IMG/VR virus record: IMGVR_UViG_3300032282_005862
Coordinates: 34,630-98,629 of that record
Length of the DNA: 64,000 nucleotides
From: a virus
Reading direction: 5' to 3' (one strand)
The number at the start of each line of letters is the position of its first letter. Within the stretch, counting starts at the first letter, position 1. Made by a program: the position numbers and the translations under genes. Shown piece by piece: positions 2,251-7,026 of the stretch. The notes under the pieces were generated by a model. That model saw only the letters and a list, made by a program, of their open reading frames with translations. It was not told where the DNA came from and did no database searches.

Positions 2251-3233
2251 TGCTTAATATTTGGGTCAGCTAAGTCTGGATTATGTTGCATTTTTGTACC
2301 ACGTTTAAAATTTTTATGTAGATTTTCATAAAATACTTTAAAAGTATCTAATGGTTTATCTATAATATTTTTAATTTTTTGTTCTGTTTTTTGCAATTCT
2401 TGATTTTCTACTTTTTTAATAATTGAGTTATAAGCTATAACTAAACATACTGCTAATGGATCAAAAACAATAACAATTAATATAATAAATATTCTTACTG
2501 CAGTTTCTATTTTTAATCCAAATGCATCAGCTACAAATTTAAATGTACCAATTTCGCCTTTTGTATTATCACTCTCTAGTCTCATTATTTCTTGACTATT
2601 TTCTAGACTTTGTTTTTCTAAATTTTGAAGATCAGAAGTTACTGTAGATATTTGAGAAAATAAGTTATTGATATTAACTTGAGATCCTTCAACTATTTTA
2701 TTTTTACTTTCTACTAATTTAATATCTGTTACTTTTTCAGTTTTAGCGGAACTGAAAAATCCACCGCCAGTAGTTTTAGTTGTAGTCACATCTTGTTTAA
2801 CGGCATTATCTAGAGATGCTTGATATGTTTTTTGTAATTCAATTAAATCTTTTAATTTGCTTTTATTGAAATCTATTTGAGAAATATAAAAATTTTGTTG
2901 AGATTTTAAACTTTGAATTTTATTTAAGTTTAAAGAATATTGAGAAAAATTACGTTGAAAAGCATCAGAAAGAAAACCAAAAATACCAAGACTTGTTATG
3001 CACATCAGTAATATCGTAGCAGATAGCATATATTTTTTAAGTAAATCATGTATTACTGACCAATATCTATAAAGATAACTTGCGCTAACTAATTTTGCTA
3101 TTTCTAAACTTCCAGCCATTATTCCAACGCTCCAAAAACTAGCTGCAAAAAGTAGAGCTATTCCTTTAACTGAAAAGAATGCTGCACAAGAAGCTAATAA
3201 GAAGGCTGATAATCCAAGTATATATTTGAACAT
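2247..3233 (-). CDS. membrane protein with coiled-coil loop (3 N-terminal TM segments, 1 C-terminal TM segment)
   Basis: Hydrophobic helices flank a Q/K/N-rich coiled coil. Motifs GSLEIAKLV, SLGIFGFLS and IVFDPLAV resemble a membrane protein type common in large phages. Confidence 0.7.
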   Translation of the reverse strand: MFKYILGLSAFLLASCAAFFSVKGIALLFAASFWSVGIMAGSLEIAKLVSASYLYRYWSVIHDLLKKYMLSATILLMCITSLGIFGFLSDAFQRNFSQYSLNLNKIQSLKSQQNFYISQIDFNKSKLKDLIELQKTYQASLDNAVKQDVTTTKTTGGGFFSSAKTEKVTDIKLVESKNKIVEGSQVNINNLFSQISTVTSDLQNLEKQSLENSQEIMRLESDNTKGEIGTFKFVADAFGLKIETAVRIFIILIVIVFDPLAVCLVIAYNSIIKKVENQELQKTEQKIKNIIDKPLDTFKVFYENLHKNFKRGTKMQHNPDLADPNIKH

Positions 3234-3248
3234 AATATTTAATCTAAA

Positions 3249-3275: not shown

Positions 3276-3791
3276 GTGATAGTATCTGAAAGAGATATTG
3301 ATTTCTTTGCTAAAAAATTGGACTTATCTCCAGAAAAAGCATTTTTACTAATCCAAGATCCAGATTGTTTGCCAGAAATATTAAATAAAATTTCAGAAGA
3401 AGATATAGATGGGATTGTTGATATAAGTTTTCCAGTATTTGCAGAAATAACTATTATAAAATATAGTAAAGATTTAAAATATTCATTTGAAGAAAAAGAA
3501 TATGTCTCAGAAGCAGTTGGTTTAAAATTCTATGATTTAATTGGAGAGCCTATTTTAAAAAAATCTATACTAGAATTCAAACATGACGAAGATACAGCTA
3601 AATCACTTTTAGTATTTTTAGGATTTTTTTATAAAAACTTACATAAAGCAAGAAGAGCTTATCCATCAGAAAATATATATTATAATATAGCAAAAAATGG
3701 ATTTGAAAATTCAGACAAAATACATATATCAGAACATCTTAAAGACTGGATTAAAATATTAAGAATAATACATAATGAAGTTTGGTTTTAA
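3276..3791 (+). CDS. hypothetical protein
   Basis: 171-aa ORF with GTG start. Confidence 0.6.
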   Translation: MIVSERDIDFFAKKLDLSPEKAFLLIQDPDCLPEILNKISEEDIDGIVDISFPVFAEITIIKYSKDLKYSFEEKEYVSEAVGLKFYDLIGEPILKKSILEFKHDEDTAKSLLVFLGFFYKNLHKARRAYPSENIYYNIAKNGFENSDKIHISEHLKDWIKILRIIHNEVWF

Positions 3792-3794
3792 TAC

Positions 3795-4120
3795 GATATC
3801 CTAATTATTTAACTTTTCTTTGATATCCAAAAGGGCTTTACCTCCAGATTTTAAATATCTGAAGTTGGGTATTATCAATCCAACTTTTCTTTTGACTCCA
3901 AATTTCACCACGATCTCAGTGATGAATGGGCCATCGCACTTACGGATCAGAGGTAGCTTCGATCACTACATTCTGCGATGCCTATAGCTACATTTCCTTC
4001 TTTAGCCATATTATGTACAAATGAAGGTTTTAATAGTTGTCAGCCCTTAGGACATTGCTATCTCAAGGATTGATAGTTGATTATTTGACATCAACAAACT
4101 GCTCTAATTGGGAACTATGT
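3795..4120 (-). ncRNA. unassigned large structured ncRNA (~320 nt)
   Basis: No long ORF. About 39% GC over 3841-4080 in an AT-rich genome. Nested inverted repeats at 3831-3837/4042-4048, 3932-3938/3974-3980, 3862-3868/3880-3886, 3904-3926, 3996-4000/4023-4027 and 4058-4062/4072-4076. A TTGACA-17-TACTAT promoter points into it with no ATG at the start site. Confidence 0.65.
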
Positions 4121-4126
4121 TAACTT

Positions 4127-4155
4127 ATAGTATATTAAGTTTGAAGTTTTGTCAA
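4127..4155 (-). promoter_or_regulatory. sigma70-type promoter TTGACA-17-TACTAT driving the ncRNA
   Basis: Near-consensus boxes with 17-nt spacer. Confidence 0.75.
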
Positions 4156-4169
4156 ATTATTTTTATAAT
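4141..4169 (+). promoter_or_regulatory. sigma70-type promoter, leaderless (TTGAAG-17-TATAAT-6-ATG), overlapping the divergent ncRNA promoter
   Basis: Read directly from sequence. Confidence 0.6.
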
Positions 4170-4175
4170 ATATTA

Positions 4176-4385
4176 ATGGAAATTATAAAAAATAAAGCCA
4201 GATGGTCAGCTTATGCAAATAAATGTGTTAAGCATTATAATATTTCTAATGAGAATATTTATGATGAACCAGAGCAATATCCATGTATCGCAATACCCCA
4301 GTTAATTTCTGATATGAATGGATCAAGAGTTAAATTTAATTTTGTTTATAAAAAAGATTGCCAAAGATTATTAAAAGCTTTATAA
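4176..4385 (+). CDS. hypothetical protein (likely start ATG 4176)
   Basis: ATG lies 6 nt after the TATAAT box. 69 aa. Confidence 0.6.
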   Translation: MEIIKNKARWSAYANKCVKHYNISNENIYDEPEQYPCIAIPQLISDMNGSRVKFNFVYKKDCQRLLKAL

Positions 4386-4386
4386 T

Positions 4387-4412
4387 GTGTAATATCAGTT
4401 AGTTCTTTAACA
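4387..4412 (+). promoter_or_regulatory. GTGTAA motif followed by boxA-like AGTTCTTTAACA upstream of tmRNA
   Basis: GTGTAA at 4387-4392. 4401-4412 resembles rrn boxA TGCTCTTTAACA. Confidence 0.5.
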
Positions 4413-4414
4413 TT

Positions 4415-4802
4415 GGGCCAGATTTGGTTTCGATTTTAGGAATTAGAATTGAAATGCAAGTGGAGGTTGAATCGAGGACTCCTTAAAAAGTTTCAATTAT
4501 ATTAACTGCCAAAACAGCAAAATATAAAGGTCATATTTCTGCAAGAGTTTCTCTTGTTGAGATGACCGCTTCTGTAGCCTAAGTTCTACAGCGTGATATC
4601 CACGACACATCTACTGGAATATTGCGTAATTAGATGTTTGAGTATAATAAGTTTTTTTATTCTTTTTTTATTCAATATCTAAAATAAAATCGCTAAGTAT
4701 GTTTGTTGTTTATCTATACGAAGTTAAAAATAAAAACAACTAAACTTGTAGTATTTTAATTTGTATTCTCTAAAAGAAGCGGTTCGACTCCGCACTGGTC
4801 CA
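4415..4802 (+). ncRNA. ssrA: tmRNA (phage-encoded); tag (A)AKTAKYKGHISARVSLVEMTASVA*
   Basis: Acceptor stem GGGCCAG/CTGGTCC with G3-U wobble and discriminator A. GGTTTCGA D-loop region. T-arm GCGG-TTCGACT-CCGC. Long P2 (TTTTAG..GCAAGT / ACTTGT..CTAAAA). PK1 (GGAG/CTCC, TTGAA/TTCAA). Resume context TAACT-GCC at 4508. Stop at 4580-4582 in the loop of CTGTAG/CTACAG. Confidence 0.92.
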
Positions 4803-4834
4803 AGTAAACGAATTGATTCGCCTCCAATTTATAT

Positions 4835-4863
4835 TAGAATATAGTTTCTCATTGATATATAAT
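4835..4863 (+). promoter_or_regulatory. sigma70-type promoter, leaderless (TAGAAT-17-TATAAT-6-ATG)
   Basis: Read directly from sequence. Supports a start at 4870. Confidence 0.55.
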
Positions 4864-4869
4864 ATAAAA

Positions 4870-5424
4870 ATGGCAGTATCTAAAATACAATTAAAATGTC
4901 TTTATTGTGGAAATATATTTGATAAATTAAAATCGGAATATAATAGAAGAGTTAGTAAAGGTAAAACTAAATTTTATTGCAGTTACAAATGCGTTGGTAA
5001 GGCTGATGTCGATAAGAATCCAGATAAATTTAAAAAATTTAGAGAAGCTAATGCTATTAGAATAAAAAAATATTGTGGATGTAGACTAGACCAATATAGT
5101 CCATTCAAATACCATGCAAATAAAGCTAGATCACGAAGTAAACAAAAAGGATACATAACAGATTTAACTACAGAATATTTAAAAGAAATTTGGGATAAAC
5201 AAAATGGAATTTGTCCATATACAAAAATACAAATGGAACTAAGTAGAACAAGCGGCGATGAAGATATTAAAAAAACTCCCACAAAAGCAAGCCTAGATAG
5301 AATCGATCCGAATATAGGATATATAAAAGGTAATGTTGAATTTGTATGTTATTGTATTAATGTAATGAAAAATGATTTTACAAAAGATCAAATGCTTAAT
5401 TTTATAAATTTAATTAAAAAATAG
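4870..5424 (+). CDS. HNH/His-Me finger-type endonuclease with N-terminal Zn-finger (putative free-standing homing endonuclease)
   Basis: N-terminal CLYC...FYCSYKC. C-terminal QNGICPYT...SLDRIDPNIGYIKGNVEFVC..IN.MK. Confidence 0.7.
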   Translation: MAVSKIQLKCLYCGNIFDKLKSEYNRRVSKGKTKFYCSYKCVGKADVDKNPDKFKKFREANAIRIKKYCGCRLDQYSPFKYHANKARSRSKQKGYITDLTTEYLKEIWDKQNGICPYTKIQMELSRTSGDEDIKKTPTKASLDRIDPNIGYIKGNVEFVCYCINVMKNDFTKDQMLNFINLIKK

Positions 5425-5439
5425 TGTATATATATTTAT

Positions 5440-7026
5440 ATGGGAGATGTAAATAAATATATAGAAGGAACTTTAGAAGCTTATAAAAATGCTACAATTT
5501 TATCACAGACATCTCAAAACTGTGAGTGTACATATACCCCAGTAAATATTGCTGGAGAAAAATCATTTCAAATTGCAACTTTTACGCTTGATATTGAATA
5601 TAGTTATAATTTTGGTGGTAGTATGACAGAAAATGCCATACAATGGCAATGGAAAGTTCTCGGCGAGCCTAAATTAATAAAAAAAGAACATTTAGAACCA
5701 ACACTTAAAGAATGGTACGACCAACATAAAGATGGATGTGCTAAATCAATGGAAAGTTCATTTAATGATGAACTCGAAAAACATTTAATGAATTTATATA
5801 AAGATCAAGAAAAAGTAATAAAAACTAAAATTAAACAATATTTTGACTTTTCAAAAAGAATGTTATATAGAGATCAATACGGAGTAGATGAATTATCTAG
5901 AATTATATCTGGGTATAACAGCCTGAGCGGAGGCGGCTTTAATGCTAAAAAAATTACAATTCAAGGAAAAGTTCAAATAAGACCAAAAATGATTATGTGC
6001 TCAAACAAAGCAGATTTTGCTAGCATGACTTATACTTCTGGTAGCAATGGAGCAACAATTAAAAAATGCGCAAGCGCAACACTTCTTCTTGGAGCAGATG
6101 CAATTAATTTTGAATTTACATTAGATAATGTAGCAAATGGAGCAGACATAACTTCTTGGCTTCCTAATGGAGCTCAGGATTTTGGTAAAGCTTTGGATAC
6201 TATGGTAAATAATATGGCTACTTTTGAAGCTGATATGGCTAATAGATATATAAAACAAAAAGGATTAATGGCATATTATCAGTATACTATTGGAAATGCT
6301 GAAAGATACCAACGATGGGCAGCTGAAATGGCAGCTAATCAAGCTACAATTACAACTAAGCAAGATAATGGATGGTTTAAATATGGATTAACATCATCAG
6401 GGCAAGGAATGTTTAATCTTCAAATTATTATTCCATTTAATGAAGGTGGATTATATTGGAATTCAACAGTAGTTGTTGTAGCATTTAATCCTGGTGTACT
6501 TGCAAAATATTATACAGCAATGAAAGAATATCGAGCAAAAGTAAGACAAGCTCAAGAATCTCGAAGAAATGCATATAATTCATGGGTACAAGCTCAAGCA
6601 TCAATTCCTCCAGCTACTAGCACAACTCCAGTAAATCTTAATCCCCTCACACCAATTAATACAGTTTTTCCAGTATCACCAGAAATTTTACATGGACCAG
6701 GAAATGGAGGAGGTGGAGGCAGAGATGTTCCTTTAGAATTAGCTCCAGATTTAAATTCATTTGATATATGGATTCCTCCATTTATTCCAAATCAATTCAG
6801 TAGTAATGGCGGAGGCGGAGATGGAGCTGGAATTGGAGGAGCTGGAGCTGGTGCTGGAGGTGGAGGAGGTGCAGGAGCTGCTGGTGGAGGCGGTGGAGCA
6901 GGTGGAGCTGGAGCAGGTGCAGGCGGATATTCTGGAGGCGGACATGGTGCAGGTAGTGCAGGGGGTGATGGGGGTGGTGGAGGACCATTTGCTGGATCAG
7001 CTACAGATGGTTTTATTCCTGTATAA
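5440..7026 (+). CDS. hypothetical protein with Pro-rich linker and Gly/Ala-rich C-terminal tail
   Basis: 528-aa ORF. GGA/GGT/GCT-rich segment at about 6800-6990. GTGTAT motif at 5424-5429. Confidence 0.7.
   Translation: MGDVNKYIEGTLEAYKNATILSQTSQNCECTYTPVNIAGEKSFQIATFTLDIEYSYNFGGSMTENAIQWQWKVLGEPKLIKKEHLEPTLKEWYDQHKDGCAKSMESSFNDELEKHLMNLYKDQEKVIKTKIKQYFDFSKRMLYRDQYGVDELSRIISGYNSLSGGGFNAKKITIQGKVQIRPKMIMCSNKADFASMTYTSGSNGATIKKCASATLLLGADAINFEFTLDNVANGADITSWLPNGAQDFGKALDTMVNNMATFEADMANRYIKQKGLMAYYQYTIGNAERYQRWAAEMAANQATITTKQDNGWFKYGLTSSGQGMFNLQIIIPFNEGGLYWNSTVVVVAFNPGVLAKYYTAMKEYRAKVRQAQESRRNAYNSWVQAQASIPPATSTTPVNLNPLTPINTVFPVSPEILHGPGNGGGGGRDVPLELAPDLNSFDIWIPPFIPNQFSSNGGGGDGAGIGGAGAGAGGGGGAGAAGGGGGAGGAGAGAGGYSGGGHGAGSAGGDGGGGGPFAGSATDGFIPV

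What the first reader, a model, noticed from the sequence alone, without database searches (positions are those of the whole stretch)
3795..4155. Unassigned ~320-nt multi-helix ncRNA with its own consensus promoter, in an RNA island beside tmRNA
Seen: TTGACA-17-TACTAT (4155-4127, minus) fires into a GC-elevated stretch with no long ORF. Unlike the other promoters here, no ATG sits at +1. The transcript can form a nested architecture. Ends pair as UCCCAAUUA/UAAUUAGGA with one mismatch. A long-range helix UGUCC-U-AAGGGCU/AGCCCUU-UU-GGAUA encloses CCUUC/GAAGG, CAUCGCA/UGCGAUG (with inner GUAG/CUAC), UUCAUCAC/GUGGUGAA, AAGUUGG/CCAACUU and UUCAGAU/AUCUGGA. A CUAUC/GAUAG hairpin lies 5' of it. G-U pairs work on the minus strand, consistent with the promoter. 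I see no RNase P, tRNA, SRP, 6S or self-splicing intron hallmarks. Inference: a possibly undescribed large phage ncRNA class (ribozyme, scaffold or anti-defence decoy) expressed early.
Basis: partly seen in the sequence, partly recalled or inferred. Interest (0 to 1): 0.85.

Follow-up and report, generated by a model that had tools for sequence, protein, structure and literature searches.

The report
New knotted phage RNA gene
The gene-free, GC-richer gap beside this uncultured lake phage's tmRNA is a real, separately transcribed gene for a roughly 320-base, pseudoknotted non-coding RNA that fits no catalogued RNA family. It carries two co-evolving copies of a purine-rich tract, and its function is still unknown.

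Summary
A conserved sigma-70-type promoter (4155-4127, minus strand) starts a roughly 320-nt, ORF-free, GC-elevated transcript (about 4120 to about 3800).

I collected 94 distinct homologs in three diverged clades of uncultured freshwater phages. On a covariance-model alignment, 76 base pairs in 12 helices are 95% canonical. Forty-five pairs show compensatory double changes, far above the shuffled and slid controls.

A long-range helix closes a five-way junction, and two covarying pseudoknots cross it; a third pseudoknot is tentative.

Rfam 15 gives no hit in any clade. Cultured phages gave none, and the motif scans of prokaryote genomes gave none. There is no conserved reading frame, and G-U pairs fix the strand. 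Lake metatranscriptome contigs from four studies cover this RNA and the tmRNA but not the gap between them.

Two 17-nt purine-rich tracts are kept identical at their variable positions, with four joint changes and none single. This points to one bivalent reader, so my best guess is a trans-acting scaffold or decoy. The function is unproven.

This scan has flagged the same family before, on other phage genomes.

The parts
4150..4155 (-). -35 box TTGACA (TTGACAAA in all homologs)
   Evidence: Consensus scan. Invariant in clades A, B and C while the 17-nt spacer varies.
4127..4132 (-). -10 box TACTAT (TAnnAT in the homologs)
   Evidence: The conserved ACAUAG begins 7 nt downstream.
3800..4121 (-). 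The ncRNA gene, about 320 nt. The 5' end is inferred at 4120/4121. The 3' end near 3800 is uncertain, because no clear terminator is present.
   Evidence: Conservation block. The covariance model scores 337 bits over 3805-4098. RNA-library contigs cover 3802-4101.
4101..4115 (-). Pa: 4-bp 5' hairpin (GUUC/GAGC) with the loop CCAAUUA
   Evidence: 93 of 94 sequences are fully paired, with 8 stem variants such as GCCU/AGGC, GUCC/GGAC and GCUU/AAGC.
4076..4095 (-). Pb hairpin (GUUGAU/AUCAAC)
   Evidence: Compensatory variants occur within and between clades.
4067..4075 (-). LR1 5' strand UAUCAAUCC. This long-range helix closes the five-way junction.
   Evidence: Helix 2: all 9 pairs show double changes and 96% of cells are paired.
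3873..3881 (-). LR1 3' strand GGAUUGAUA
   Evidence: helix 2.
4032..4062 (-). Pc hairpin: GAUAG-CAA-UGUC, then the loop, then GACA-A-CUAUU
   Evidence: Helices 3 and 4, for example UA/CG at 45/48 and AU to GC in clade C.
4042..4048 (-). PK2 5' strand AAGGGCU, which lies in the loop of Pc
   Evidence: Helix 5: 99.7% paired, and 4 of 7 pairs show double changes.
3831..3837 (-). PK2 3' strand AGCCCUU (long-range pseudoknot)
   Evidence: helix 5.
3996..4027 (-). Pe hairpin (CCUUC/GAAGG) with a conserved inner stem-loop
   Evidence: Helices 6 and 7.
3986..3991 (-). Pg 5' strand GUAGCU. This pseudoknot crosses Pf and Ph.
   Evidence: Helix 8: 97% paired, and 2 pairs show double changes.
3953..3958 (-). 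Pg 3' strand AGCUAC, which lies in the loop of Ph
   Evidence: helix 8.
3929..3982 (-). Pf (GG-CAUCGCA / UGCGAUG-G-CC) enclosing Ph (UGAUC/GAUCC), with conserved internal loops
   Evidence: Helices 9 and 10.
3904..3926 (-). Pi hairpin (UUCAUCAC/GUGGUGAA). It ends in a GNRA tetraloop in clade B.
   Evidence: Helix 11: all 7 pairs show double changes.
3883..3900 (-). Tract 1: U-GGA-GU-C-AAAAGAAAAGU, unpaired in the model
   Evidence: Invariant except at positions N and Y.
3841..3864 (-). Pk hairpin (CUUCAGAU / AUCU-G-GAGG)
   Evidence: Helix 12.
3812..3829 (-). Tract 2: U-GGA-UAU-C-AAAGAAAAGU, unpaired in the model
   Evidence: N and Y are always the same as in tract 1.
3803..3807 (-). Tentative PK1 3' strand UAAUU, pairing with the Pa loop AAUUA (4105-4109)
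   Evidence: Clade C shows a swap between UAAUA/UAUUA and UAUUA/UAAUA. Overall, though, the signal is barely above an A/U-rich null.
4415..4803 (+). Neighbouring phage tmRNA gene (context only, not part of the RNA)
   Evidence: Rfam 92 bits and ARAGORN.

Best explanation
What is shown: this is a stand-alone gene for a roughly 320-nt non-coding RNA of a family not in Rfam. It is read from its own host-type promoter on the minus strand. The RNA folds into a compact body. Two small 5' hairpins (Pa, Pb) come first. A long-range helix (LR1) then closes a five-way junction that holds the hairpins Pc, Pe, Pf/Ph and Pi. Two covarying pseudoknots lock the fold: the Pc loop pairs with a strand 3' of hairpin Pk, and the Ph loop pairs with the strand just 5' of Pf.

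What is inferred: the body holds two near-identical 17-nt purine-rich tracts (N-GGA..Y-AAA(A)GAAAAGU). Their two variable positions always change together. I therefore read the tracts as the two binding sites for one bivalent partner, either a dimeric RNA-binding protein or a repeated RNA. On this reading the RNA acts in trans during infection as a scaffold or decoy. I put the reality of the gene and the fold at about 0.93. The scaffold/decoy mechanism is inference only.
For: - The promoter is conserved in all clades, with +1 at the conserved ACAUAG.
- There are 94 distinct homologs in three clades that differ by 34-38%.
- 95.2% of cells are canonical, 45 of 76 pairs show double changes, and the covariation score is 0.334 against 0.140 for shuffles (0 of 500) and 0.045-0.082 for slid controls.
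- Strand asymmetry: 392 G-U cells against 55 A-C cells.
- The RNA is the best-kept local segment: 93.5% nucleotide identity, against 84.4% for the neighbouring ORF and 86.5% for the tmRNA.
- RNA-library contigs from four lake studies cover 3802-4101 and the tmRNA, but not 4110-4420.
- There is no Rfam match.
- Tract coupling: Y is C/C in 73 sequences and U/U in 21, with no mixed case. Parsimony gives 4 joint changes on the tree. N is U/U, G/G or A/A by clade.
- The RNA gene sits in different places and orientations in clade C and in clades A/B, always with its own promoter. It therefore acts as an independent unit.
Against: - No partner has been identified.
- The tracts sit in junction strands and could be buried in the fold rather than exposed.
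- The distance between GGA and Y differs by one base between the two tracts, which is awkward for a rigid reader.
- Position N varies only between clades, so it represents only two events.
- The contigs give neither the strand nor the exact ends, and RNA libraries can carry DNA.
- No terminator is visible, so the 3' end is not fixed.
Confidence: 0.4

Rival explanations
1. It is a large ribozyme or the RNA subunit of an RNA-processing RNP. For example, it could mature or modify the phage tmRNA or tRNAs. On this reading the invariant junction strands form an active site.
For: - Its size, its multi-pseudoknotted compact fold, a GNRA tetraloop in clade B and many invariant unpaired nucleotides are typical of large ribozymes.
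- It co-occurs with a phage tmRNA in every locus where enough DNA is held.
Against: - It matches no RNase P, group I/II intron or other ribozyme model, even at E<=10.
- The order of its helices differs from that of RNase P and group I introns.
- No substrate or cleavage site is evident.
- The promoter spacing puts the 5' end at +1, so self-processing is not needed.
Confidence: 0.15
2. It is a self-assembling 'ornate' RNA like ROOL or GOLLD. Several copies would join into a multimeric particle, with the palindromic GAUAUC of tract 2 or other loops acting as contact points.
For: - It is phage-borne and lies beside a tRNA-like gene. It is large, highly structured and has no known function, like ROOL and GOLLD, which form RNA-only multimers (abstract of bioRxiv 10.1101/2024.12.08.627333, listed).
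- Tract 2 contains the self-complementary GAUAUC, or GAUAUU with G-U ends.
Against: - It has no sequence or model similarity to ROOL or GOLLD, and it is half their size or less.
- A tract 2 self-contact does not explain why tract 1 changes with it.
Confidence: 0.15
3. It is a cis-acting element: a riboswitch or leader, or an antisense regulator of the convergent 171-aa gene.
For: - In clade C the RNA lies about 100 nt upstream of nrdA on the same strand.
- In clades A and B its 3' end meets the 3' end of the 171-aa gene.
Against: - In clades A and B no gene lies downstream on its strand.
- In clade C a separate promoter-like site lies between the RNA and nrdA.
- The neighbours differ between clades while the RNA keeps its own promoter.
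- At 320 nt it is far larger than known aptamers.
- Complementarity to the 171-aa gene is limited to a few bases at most.
Confidence: 0.05
4. It is not an RNA gene at all. It could be a small protein gene on either strand, or a DNA-level site such as an origin or packaging signal.
For: Stop-free stretches of 43-97 codons occur, mostly on the opposite, pyrimidine-rich strand.
Against: - These stretches use different frames even within clade A, and they have no conserved start.
- Substitutions are compensatory in stems, and G-U pairs fit only one strand.
- The element is present in RNA libraries while its flanks are not.
Confidence: 0.03

Closest known systems
ROOL (RF03087) and GOLLD (RF01998) RNAs
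   Same: Large, intricately folded RNAs with no known function. They are often carried by phages or prophages next to tRNA-type genes, and were recognised by covariation alone.
   Different: No model match. This RNA is about 320 nt, against about 580 and 800 nt. Its helix plan is different. It has twin purine tracts. It is restricted to one lineage of freshwater phages. Multimer formation has not been tested.
Bacterial RNase P RNA (RF00010/RF00011)
   Same: Similar size, long-range pseudoknot pairing that links the 5' and 3' parts, and a multi-helix junction. Clade B has GAGGGAAAGUC, which recalls the RNase P CR-I motif.
   Different: No hit even at E<=10. The motif lies near the 3' end and pairs with a hairpin loop, unlike P4. 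The order of helices differs. No ACAGNRA-type CR-V partner was seen.
tmRNA (RF00023), the neighbouring gene
   Same: A pseudoknot-rich stable RNA with its own sigma-70-type promoter. It is carried by the same phages and is present in the same lake RNA libraries.
   Different: No tRNA-like domain and no tag reading frame. ARAGORN and Rfam find only the true tmRNA at 4415-4803. Pairing between the tracts and the tmRNA is not conserved.
Phage T4 small stable RNAs rnaC and rnaD (from my own knowledge)
   Same: Phage-encoded stable RNAs of unknown function that sit among tRNA-type genes.
   Different: The T4 RNAs are about 120-140 nt and are co-transcribed with tRNAs. This RNA is about 320 nt, has pseudoknots and has its own promoter. 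No homology was tested, because no reference sequence was at hand.

Membership tests
RNase P RNA (bacterial A/B, archaeal, nuclear) | Match to the family covariance model | tested here: not met
   There is no RNase P hit at gathering score on the window, at E<=10 on 3400-4500, or at E<=1 in the clade B and C loci.
RNase P RNA (bacterial A/B, archaeal, nuclear) | A P4 helix made by a 5' CR-I strand and a 3' CR-V strand, with P1-P3 before it and P5-P18 inside it | tested here: not met
   The covariation-supported order of helices is different. The long-range pseudoknot uses a hairpin loop as its 5' strand.
tmRNA | A tRNA-like acceptor and T arm, plus a tag reading frame | tested here: not met
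   ARAGORN and Rfam find only the gene at 4415-4803.
Group I / group II introns | Match to the intron models, and conserved exons on both sides | tested here: not met
   There is no model hit. The conserved block starts at the +1 of a promoter, and the flanks are not conserved.
ROOL / GOLLD / OLE / raiA large RNAs | Match to the family covariance model | tested here: not met
   There is no hit in any clade.
ROOL / GOLLD large RNAs | Assembly into RNA-only multimers | not testable with these tools
   This needs cryo-EM or SEC-MALS.
Riboswitch / cis leader | A regulated gene directly downstream on the same strand in most members | tested here: not met
   In clades A and B the next gene is convergent. 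Only clade C has nrdA downstream, and it has its own promoter-like site.
6S RNA | A long, mostly double-stranded hairpin with a central bubble, and a model match | tested here: not met
   There is no hit. The fold is a multi-branched junction with pseudoknots.

The most novel reading that the evidence does not exclude
This would be a new class of large functional RNA: either a ribozyme, or an RNA machine whose two co-evolving purine tracts grip one host or phage partner. That partner could be a component of translation or of trans-translation, which the phage retools together with its own tmRNA.
Probability: 0.2. Interest if true: 0.9.

Novelty: categorically new. Interest (0 to 1): 0.72.

Why it matters
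New RNA classes above 300 nt with intricate, pseudoknotted, strongly covarying folds are rare. The known ones are mostly ribozymes, RNP cores or the still-unexplained 'ornate' RNAs. This one has several features that make it a good subject:
- It is well defined, with a promoter, a fold and 94 variants.
- It is expressed in nature.
- It is more conserved than the tmRNA beside it.
- Its twin tracts evolve in lock-step, which gives a concrete experimental handle for fishing out its partner.

It would add a new item to the short list of phage-encoded stable RNAs. It may also reveal a new way in which phages manipulate host RNA biology.

Tried and rejected
- **RNase P, SRP, 6S, introns, ROOL/GOLLD:** no Rfam hit at permissive thresholds in any clade.
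- **A second copy in the same phage:** the weak model hits at G000 3031-3240 lie in Lys-rich coding sequence.
- **Tract-tmRNA pairing:** tract 2 has a perfect 9-bp complement in this phage's tmRNA (near tmRNA position 179), and tract 1 matches GACUCC. However, the tmRNA sites vary freely while the tracts are invariant, so this is chance.
- **A purine that covaries with Y (base-triple idea):** the Pk bulge (G or A) and the second Pk pair (U-G or C-G) track Y within clades A and B. They fail in clade C and in several clade A members.
both are weak. The mean longest complementary run is 4.4, against 3.8 in an A/U-rich null.
- **RNAalifold's alternative pairing of tract 2 with the Pb 5' strand:** clade B keeps a different local Pb hairpin, so this is not favoured.
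- **Bacterial homologs:** the strict twin-tract pattern found none.
- **Cultured phages:** there is no match for the RNA, the 171-aa neighbour or the tmRNA.
- **Relaxed twin-tract scan of IMG/VR:** it added only one more clade A fragment.
- **Supplement of PMC10690425:** it is not held, so overlap with that catalogue could not be checked.
- **Host:** it was not identified. The DnaE-like polymerase is under 33% identical to that of any cultured phage.

Full report
**Setting.** The window is part of a 98.6-kb IMG/VR phage record that is estimated 64% complete and has about 25% GC. The genes in the window include tail proteins (central tail fibre J type), a DnaE-like polymerase, a DnaB-type helicase and sugar-modifying enzymes. 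No cultured phage is close: the polymerase is under 33% identical to any. A tmRNA gene lies at 4415-4803 on the plus strand.

**The observation.** The stretch 3801-4100 has 38-39% GC, against about 25% around it. No ORF there exceeds 55 aa. The promoter-like site TTGACA-17-TACTAT lies at 4155-4127 on the minus strand. The single sequence folds only moderately better than shuffles (z = -2.4). The case therefore rests on comparison with homologs.

**Homologs.**
- The neighbouring 171-aa gene led to 32 related IMG/VR loci.
- An invariant motif led to further loci.
- A twin-motif pattern found 78 metagenome contigs, mostly from lakes.
- After profile searches, 94 distinct full-length sequences remained.
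- They fall into three main clades that differ by 34-38%: clade A (which includes this window), clade B and clade C.
- In the same 19 loci the RNA is 93.5% identical at the nucleotide level, the 171-aa gene 84.4% and the tmRNA 86.5%.

**Promoter.** The promoter is kept in every clade. TTGACAAA, a 17-nt variable spacer and a TAnnAT box are followed after about 7 nt by the invariant ACAUAG. This places +1 at about 4120.

**Fold.** I built a 293-position covariance model and realigned 95 matches to it.

On that alignment the model has 76 pairs in 12 helices:
- 95.2% of cells are canonical.
- 45 pairs show changes on both sides.
- The covariation score is 0.334, against 0.140 for shuffles (0 of 500 reach it) and 0.045-0.082 when the partners are slid by 1-3 columns.

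One caveat is that the alignment was fitted to the nested part of the model. However, the two pseudoknots were not in the covariance model and still score 99.7% and 97.3% paired, each with several double changes.

The plan of the RNA, from 5' to 3', is as follows:
- Hairpins Pa and Pb come first. For these, one search shows 93 of 94 Pa stems fully paired, in 8 variants.
- LR1 (UAUCAAUCC with GGAUUGAUA) closes a five-way junction that holds Pc, Pe, Pf/Ph and Pi.
- Hairpin Pk follows the junction.
- Pseudoknot PK2 joins the Pc loop (AAGGGCU) to AGCCCUU, 3' of Pk.
- Pseudoknot Pg joins GUAGCU, just 5' of Pf, to AGCUAC in the Ph loop.
- A third contact, between the Pa loop AAUUA and the 3' tail UAAUU, shows a neat swap in clade C. 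Overall it is barely above an A/U-rich null, so I call it tentative.

The helices CUAUC/GAUAG, AAGUUGG/CCAACUU, UGUCC/GGAUA, the inner GUAG/CUAC and the outer terminal pairing do not.

**RNA, not protein or DNA site.**
- G-U pairs outnumber A-C cells by 392 to 55, which fixes the strand.
- The stop-free stretches lie mainly on the opposite, pyrimidine-rich strand. They use different frames even within clade A, and they lack a conserved start.

**Expression.** Twenty-three freshwater metatranscriptome runs hold part of the 3300-4900 stretch. In the four runs I laid on it, all from different studies, contigs cover 3802-4101 at depth 2-29 and the tmRNA at depth in the hundreds to thousands. Nothing covers 4110-4420, and the flanking genes are almost bare. 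Contigs cannot give the strand or exact ends, and DNA carry-over cannot be excluded. Even so, the pattern fits two discrete stable RNAs.

**Known families.** Rfam 15 gives only the tmRNA at gathering score. On 3400-4500 at E<=10 it gives two chance-level hits, Termite-leu and SCARNA7, both far below threshold. In clade B and C loci at E<=1 it gives nothing beyond the tmRNA.

The order of helices matches neither RNase P nor group I introns. A GAGGGAAAGUC motif in clade B recalls RNase P CR-I. It sits near the 3' end and pairs with a hairpin loop, so I read it as a resemblance only.

A large catalogue of candidate viral structured RNAs from IMG/VR lists only elements of 29-151 nt (PMC10690425). 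Its files are not held. Parts of this RNA may therefore be in that list, but the whole is not.

**Distribution.**
- No match was found in 50,697 phage records.
- None was found in one genome per prokaryote species with a strict twin-tract pattern.
- A relaxed scan of IMG/VR added only one clade A fragment.
- As far as these motif-based searches reach, the family is confined to one lineage of freshwater phages.

**Context.** In clades A and B the gene is divergent from a small ORF plus the tmRNA, and convergent with the 171-aa gene. In clade C it lies 7-10 kb from the tmRNA, about 100 nt upstream of nrdA on the same strand. There it keeps its own promoter, and a further promoter-like site precedes nrdA. 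It therefore behaves as an independent, movable gene. No protein gene is constantly next to it.

**The twin tracts.** Two unpaired segments are almost the same. Tract 1 (3883-3900) is N-GGA-GU-Y-AAAAGAAAAGU, and tract 2 (3812-3829) is N-GGA-UAU-Y-AAAGAAAAGU. Earlier notes of this scan, on related genomes, said that the tracts change together, so I tested that here.
- Y is C in both tracts in 73 sequences and U in both in 21. It is never mixed.
- On a tree built without these columns, the joint state changes four times.
- N is U/U in clade A, G/G in clade B and A/A in clade C. That amounts to only two events.

A partner that reads both tracts in the same way is the simplest explanation. I tested the obvious candidate, the phage tmRNA. 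This phage's tmRNA holds a perfect 9-bp complement to tract 2, but across 60 phages the tmRNA sites vary while the tracts do not. I reject that pairing. Internal partners were also sought: the Pk bulge and one Pk pair track Y in clades A and B but not in clade C.

From general knowledge, the tracts resemble Hfq distal-face (A-R-N) repeats and carry GGA as CsrA sites do. That is a lead only and was not tested.

**Verdict.**
- The gene and its knotted fold are real and uncatalogued (about 0.93).
- My best mechanistic guess is a trans-acting scaffold or decoy that offers two equivalent sites to one partner (about 0.4).
- The rivals are a ribozyme or RNP core (0.15), a self-assembling ornate RNA (0.15), a cis or antisense element (0.05) and not an RNA at all (0.03).
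- The same family was flagged and followed up several times before in this scan, on other phage genomes, with concordant conclusions. My analysis was made independently of those reports, except for the tract lead named above.

Noticed in passing
window 4415-4803: The phage tmRNA has a 24-codon tag (AKTAKYKGHISARVSLVEMTASVA). Related sequences are very abundant in lake metatranscriptome contigs, with depth in the hundreds to thousands. The tag differs between phage clades, ending in ...SVA or ...LIAA.
   Followed up: partly
window 4176-4385 (+): A small conserved ORF of 69 aa from its ATG (78 aa from an upstream TTG) lies between the RNA promoter and the tmRNA. Its promoter-like site (TTGAAG-17-TATAAT, 4141-4169) overlaps the RNA's promoter back to back. 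It is about 40% identical in clade B and has no Pfam or PHROG match.
   Followed up: partly
window 6700-7026 (+): GC spikes to 62% in a 25% GC genome. This is the Gly/Ala-rich low-complexity C-terminal tail of the 528-aa protein (5440-7026).
   Followed up: partly
window 4813-5424 (+): An HNH / endonuclease VII-type gene lies directly after the tmRNA (PHROG 3322, E = 5e-25). It may be a mobile nuclease that has settled beside the RNA genes.
   Followed up: no
L054:1289-3996, L092:947-3655, L040:6603-9308 (clade C loci): In clade C the RNA gene sits about 100 nt upstream of a 750-aa gene on the same strand. In clade B the same three genes plus the 171-aa gene run towards the RNA from the other side.
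   Followed up: partly
window 3812-3820 and 4592-4600: Tract 2 (UGGAUAUCA) has a perfect 9-bp complement in this phage's own tmRNA (UGAUAUCCA, near tmRNA position 179). The match is not conserved in related phages, so it is probably chance.
   Followed up: yes
window 3857-3864 / 3841-3849: Within clades A and B, the second pair of hairpin Pk is U-G when the tracts carry C/C and C-G when they carry U/U. This holds in all four events. Clade C breaks the rule (C-G with C/C). It is unexplained.
   Followed up: partly
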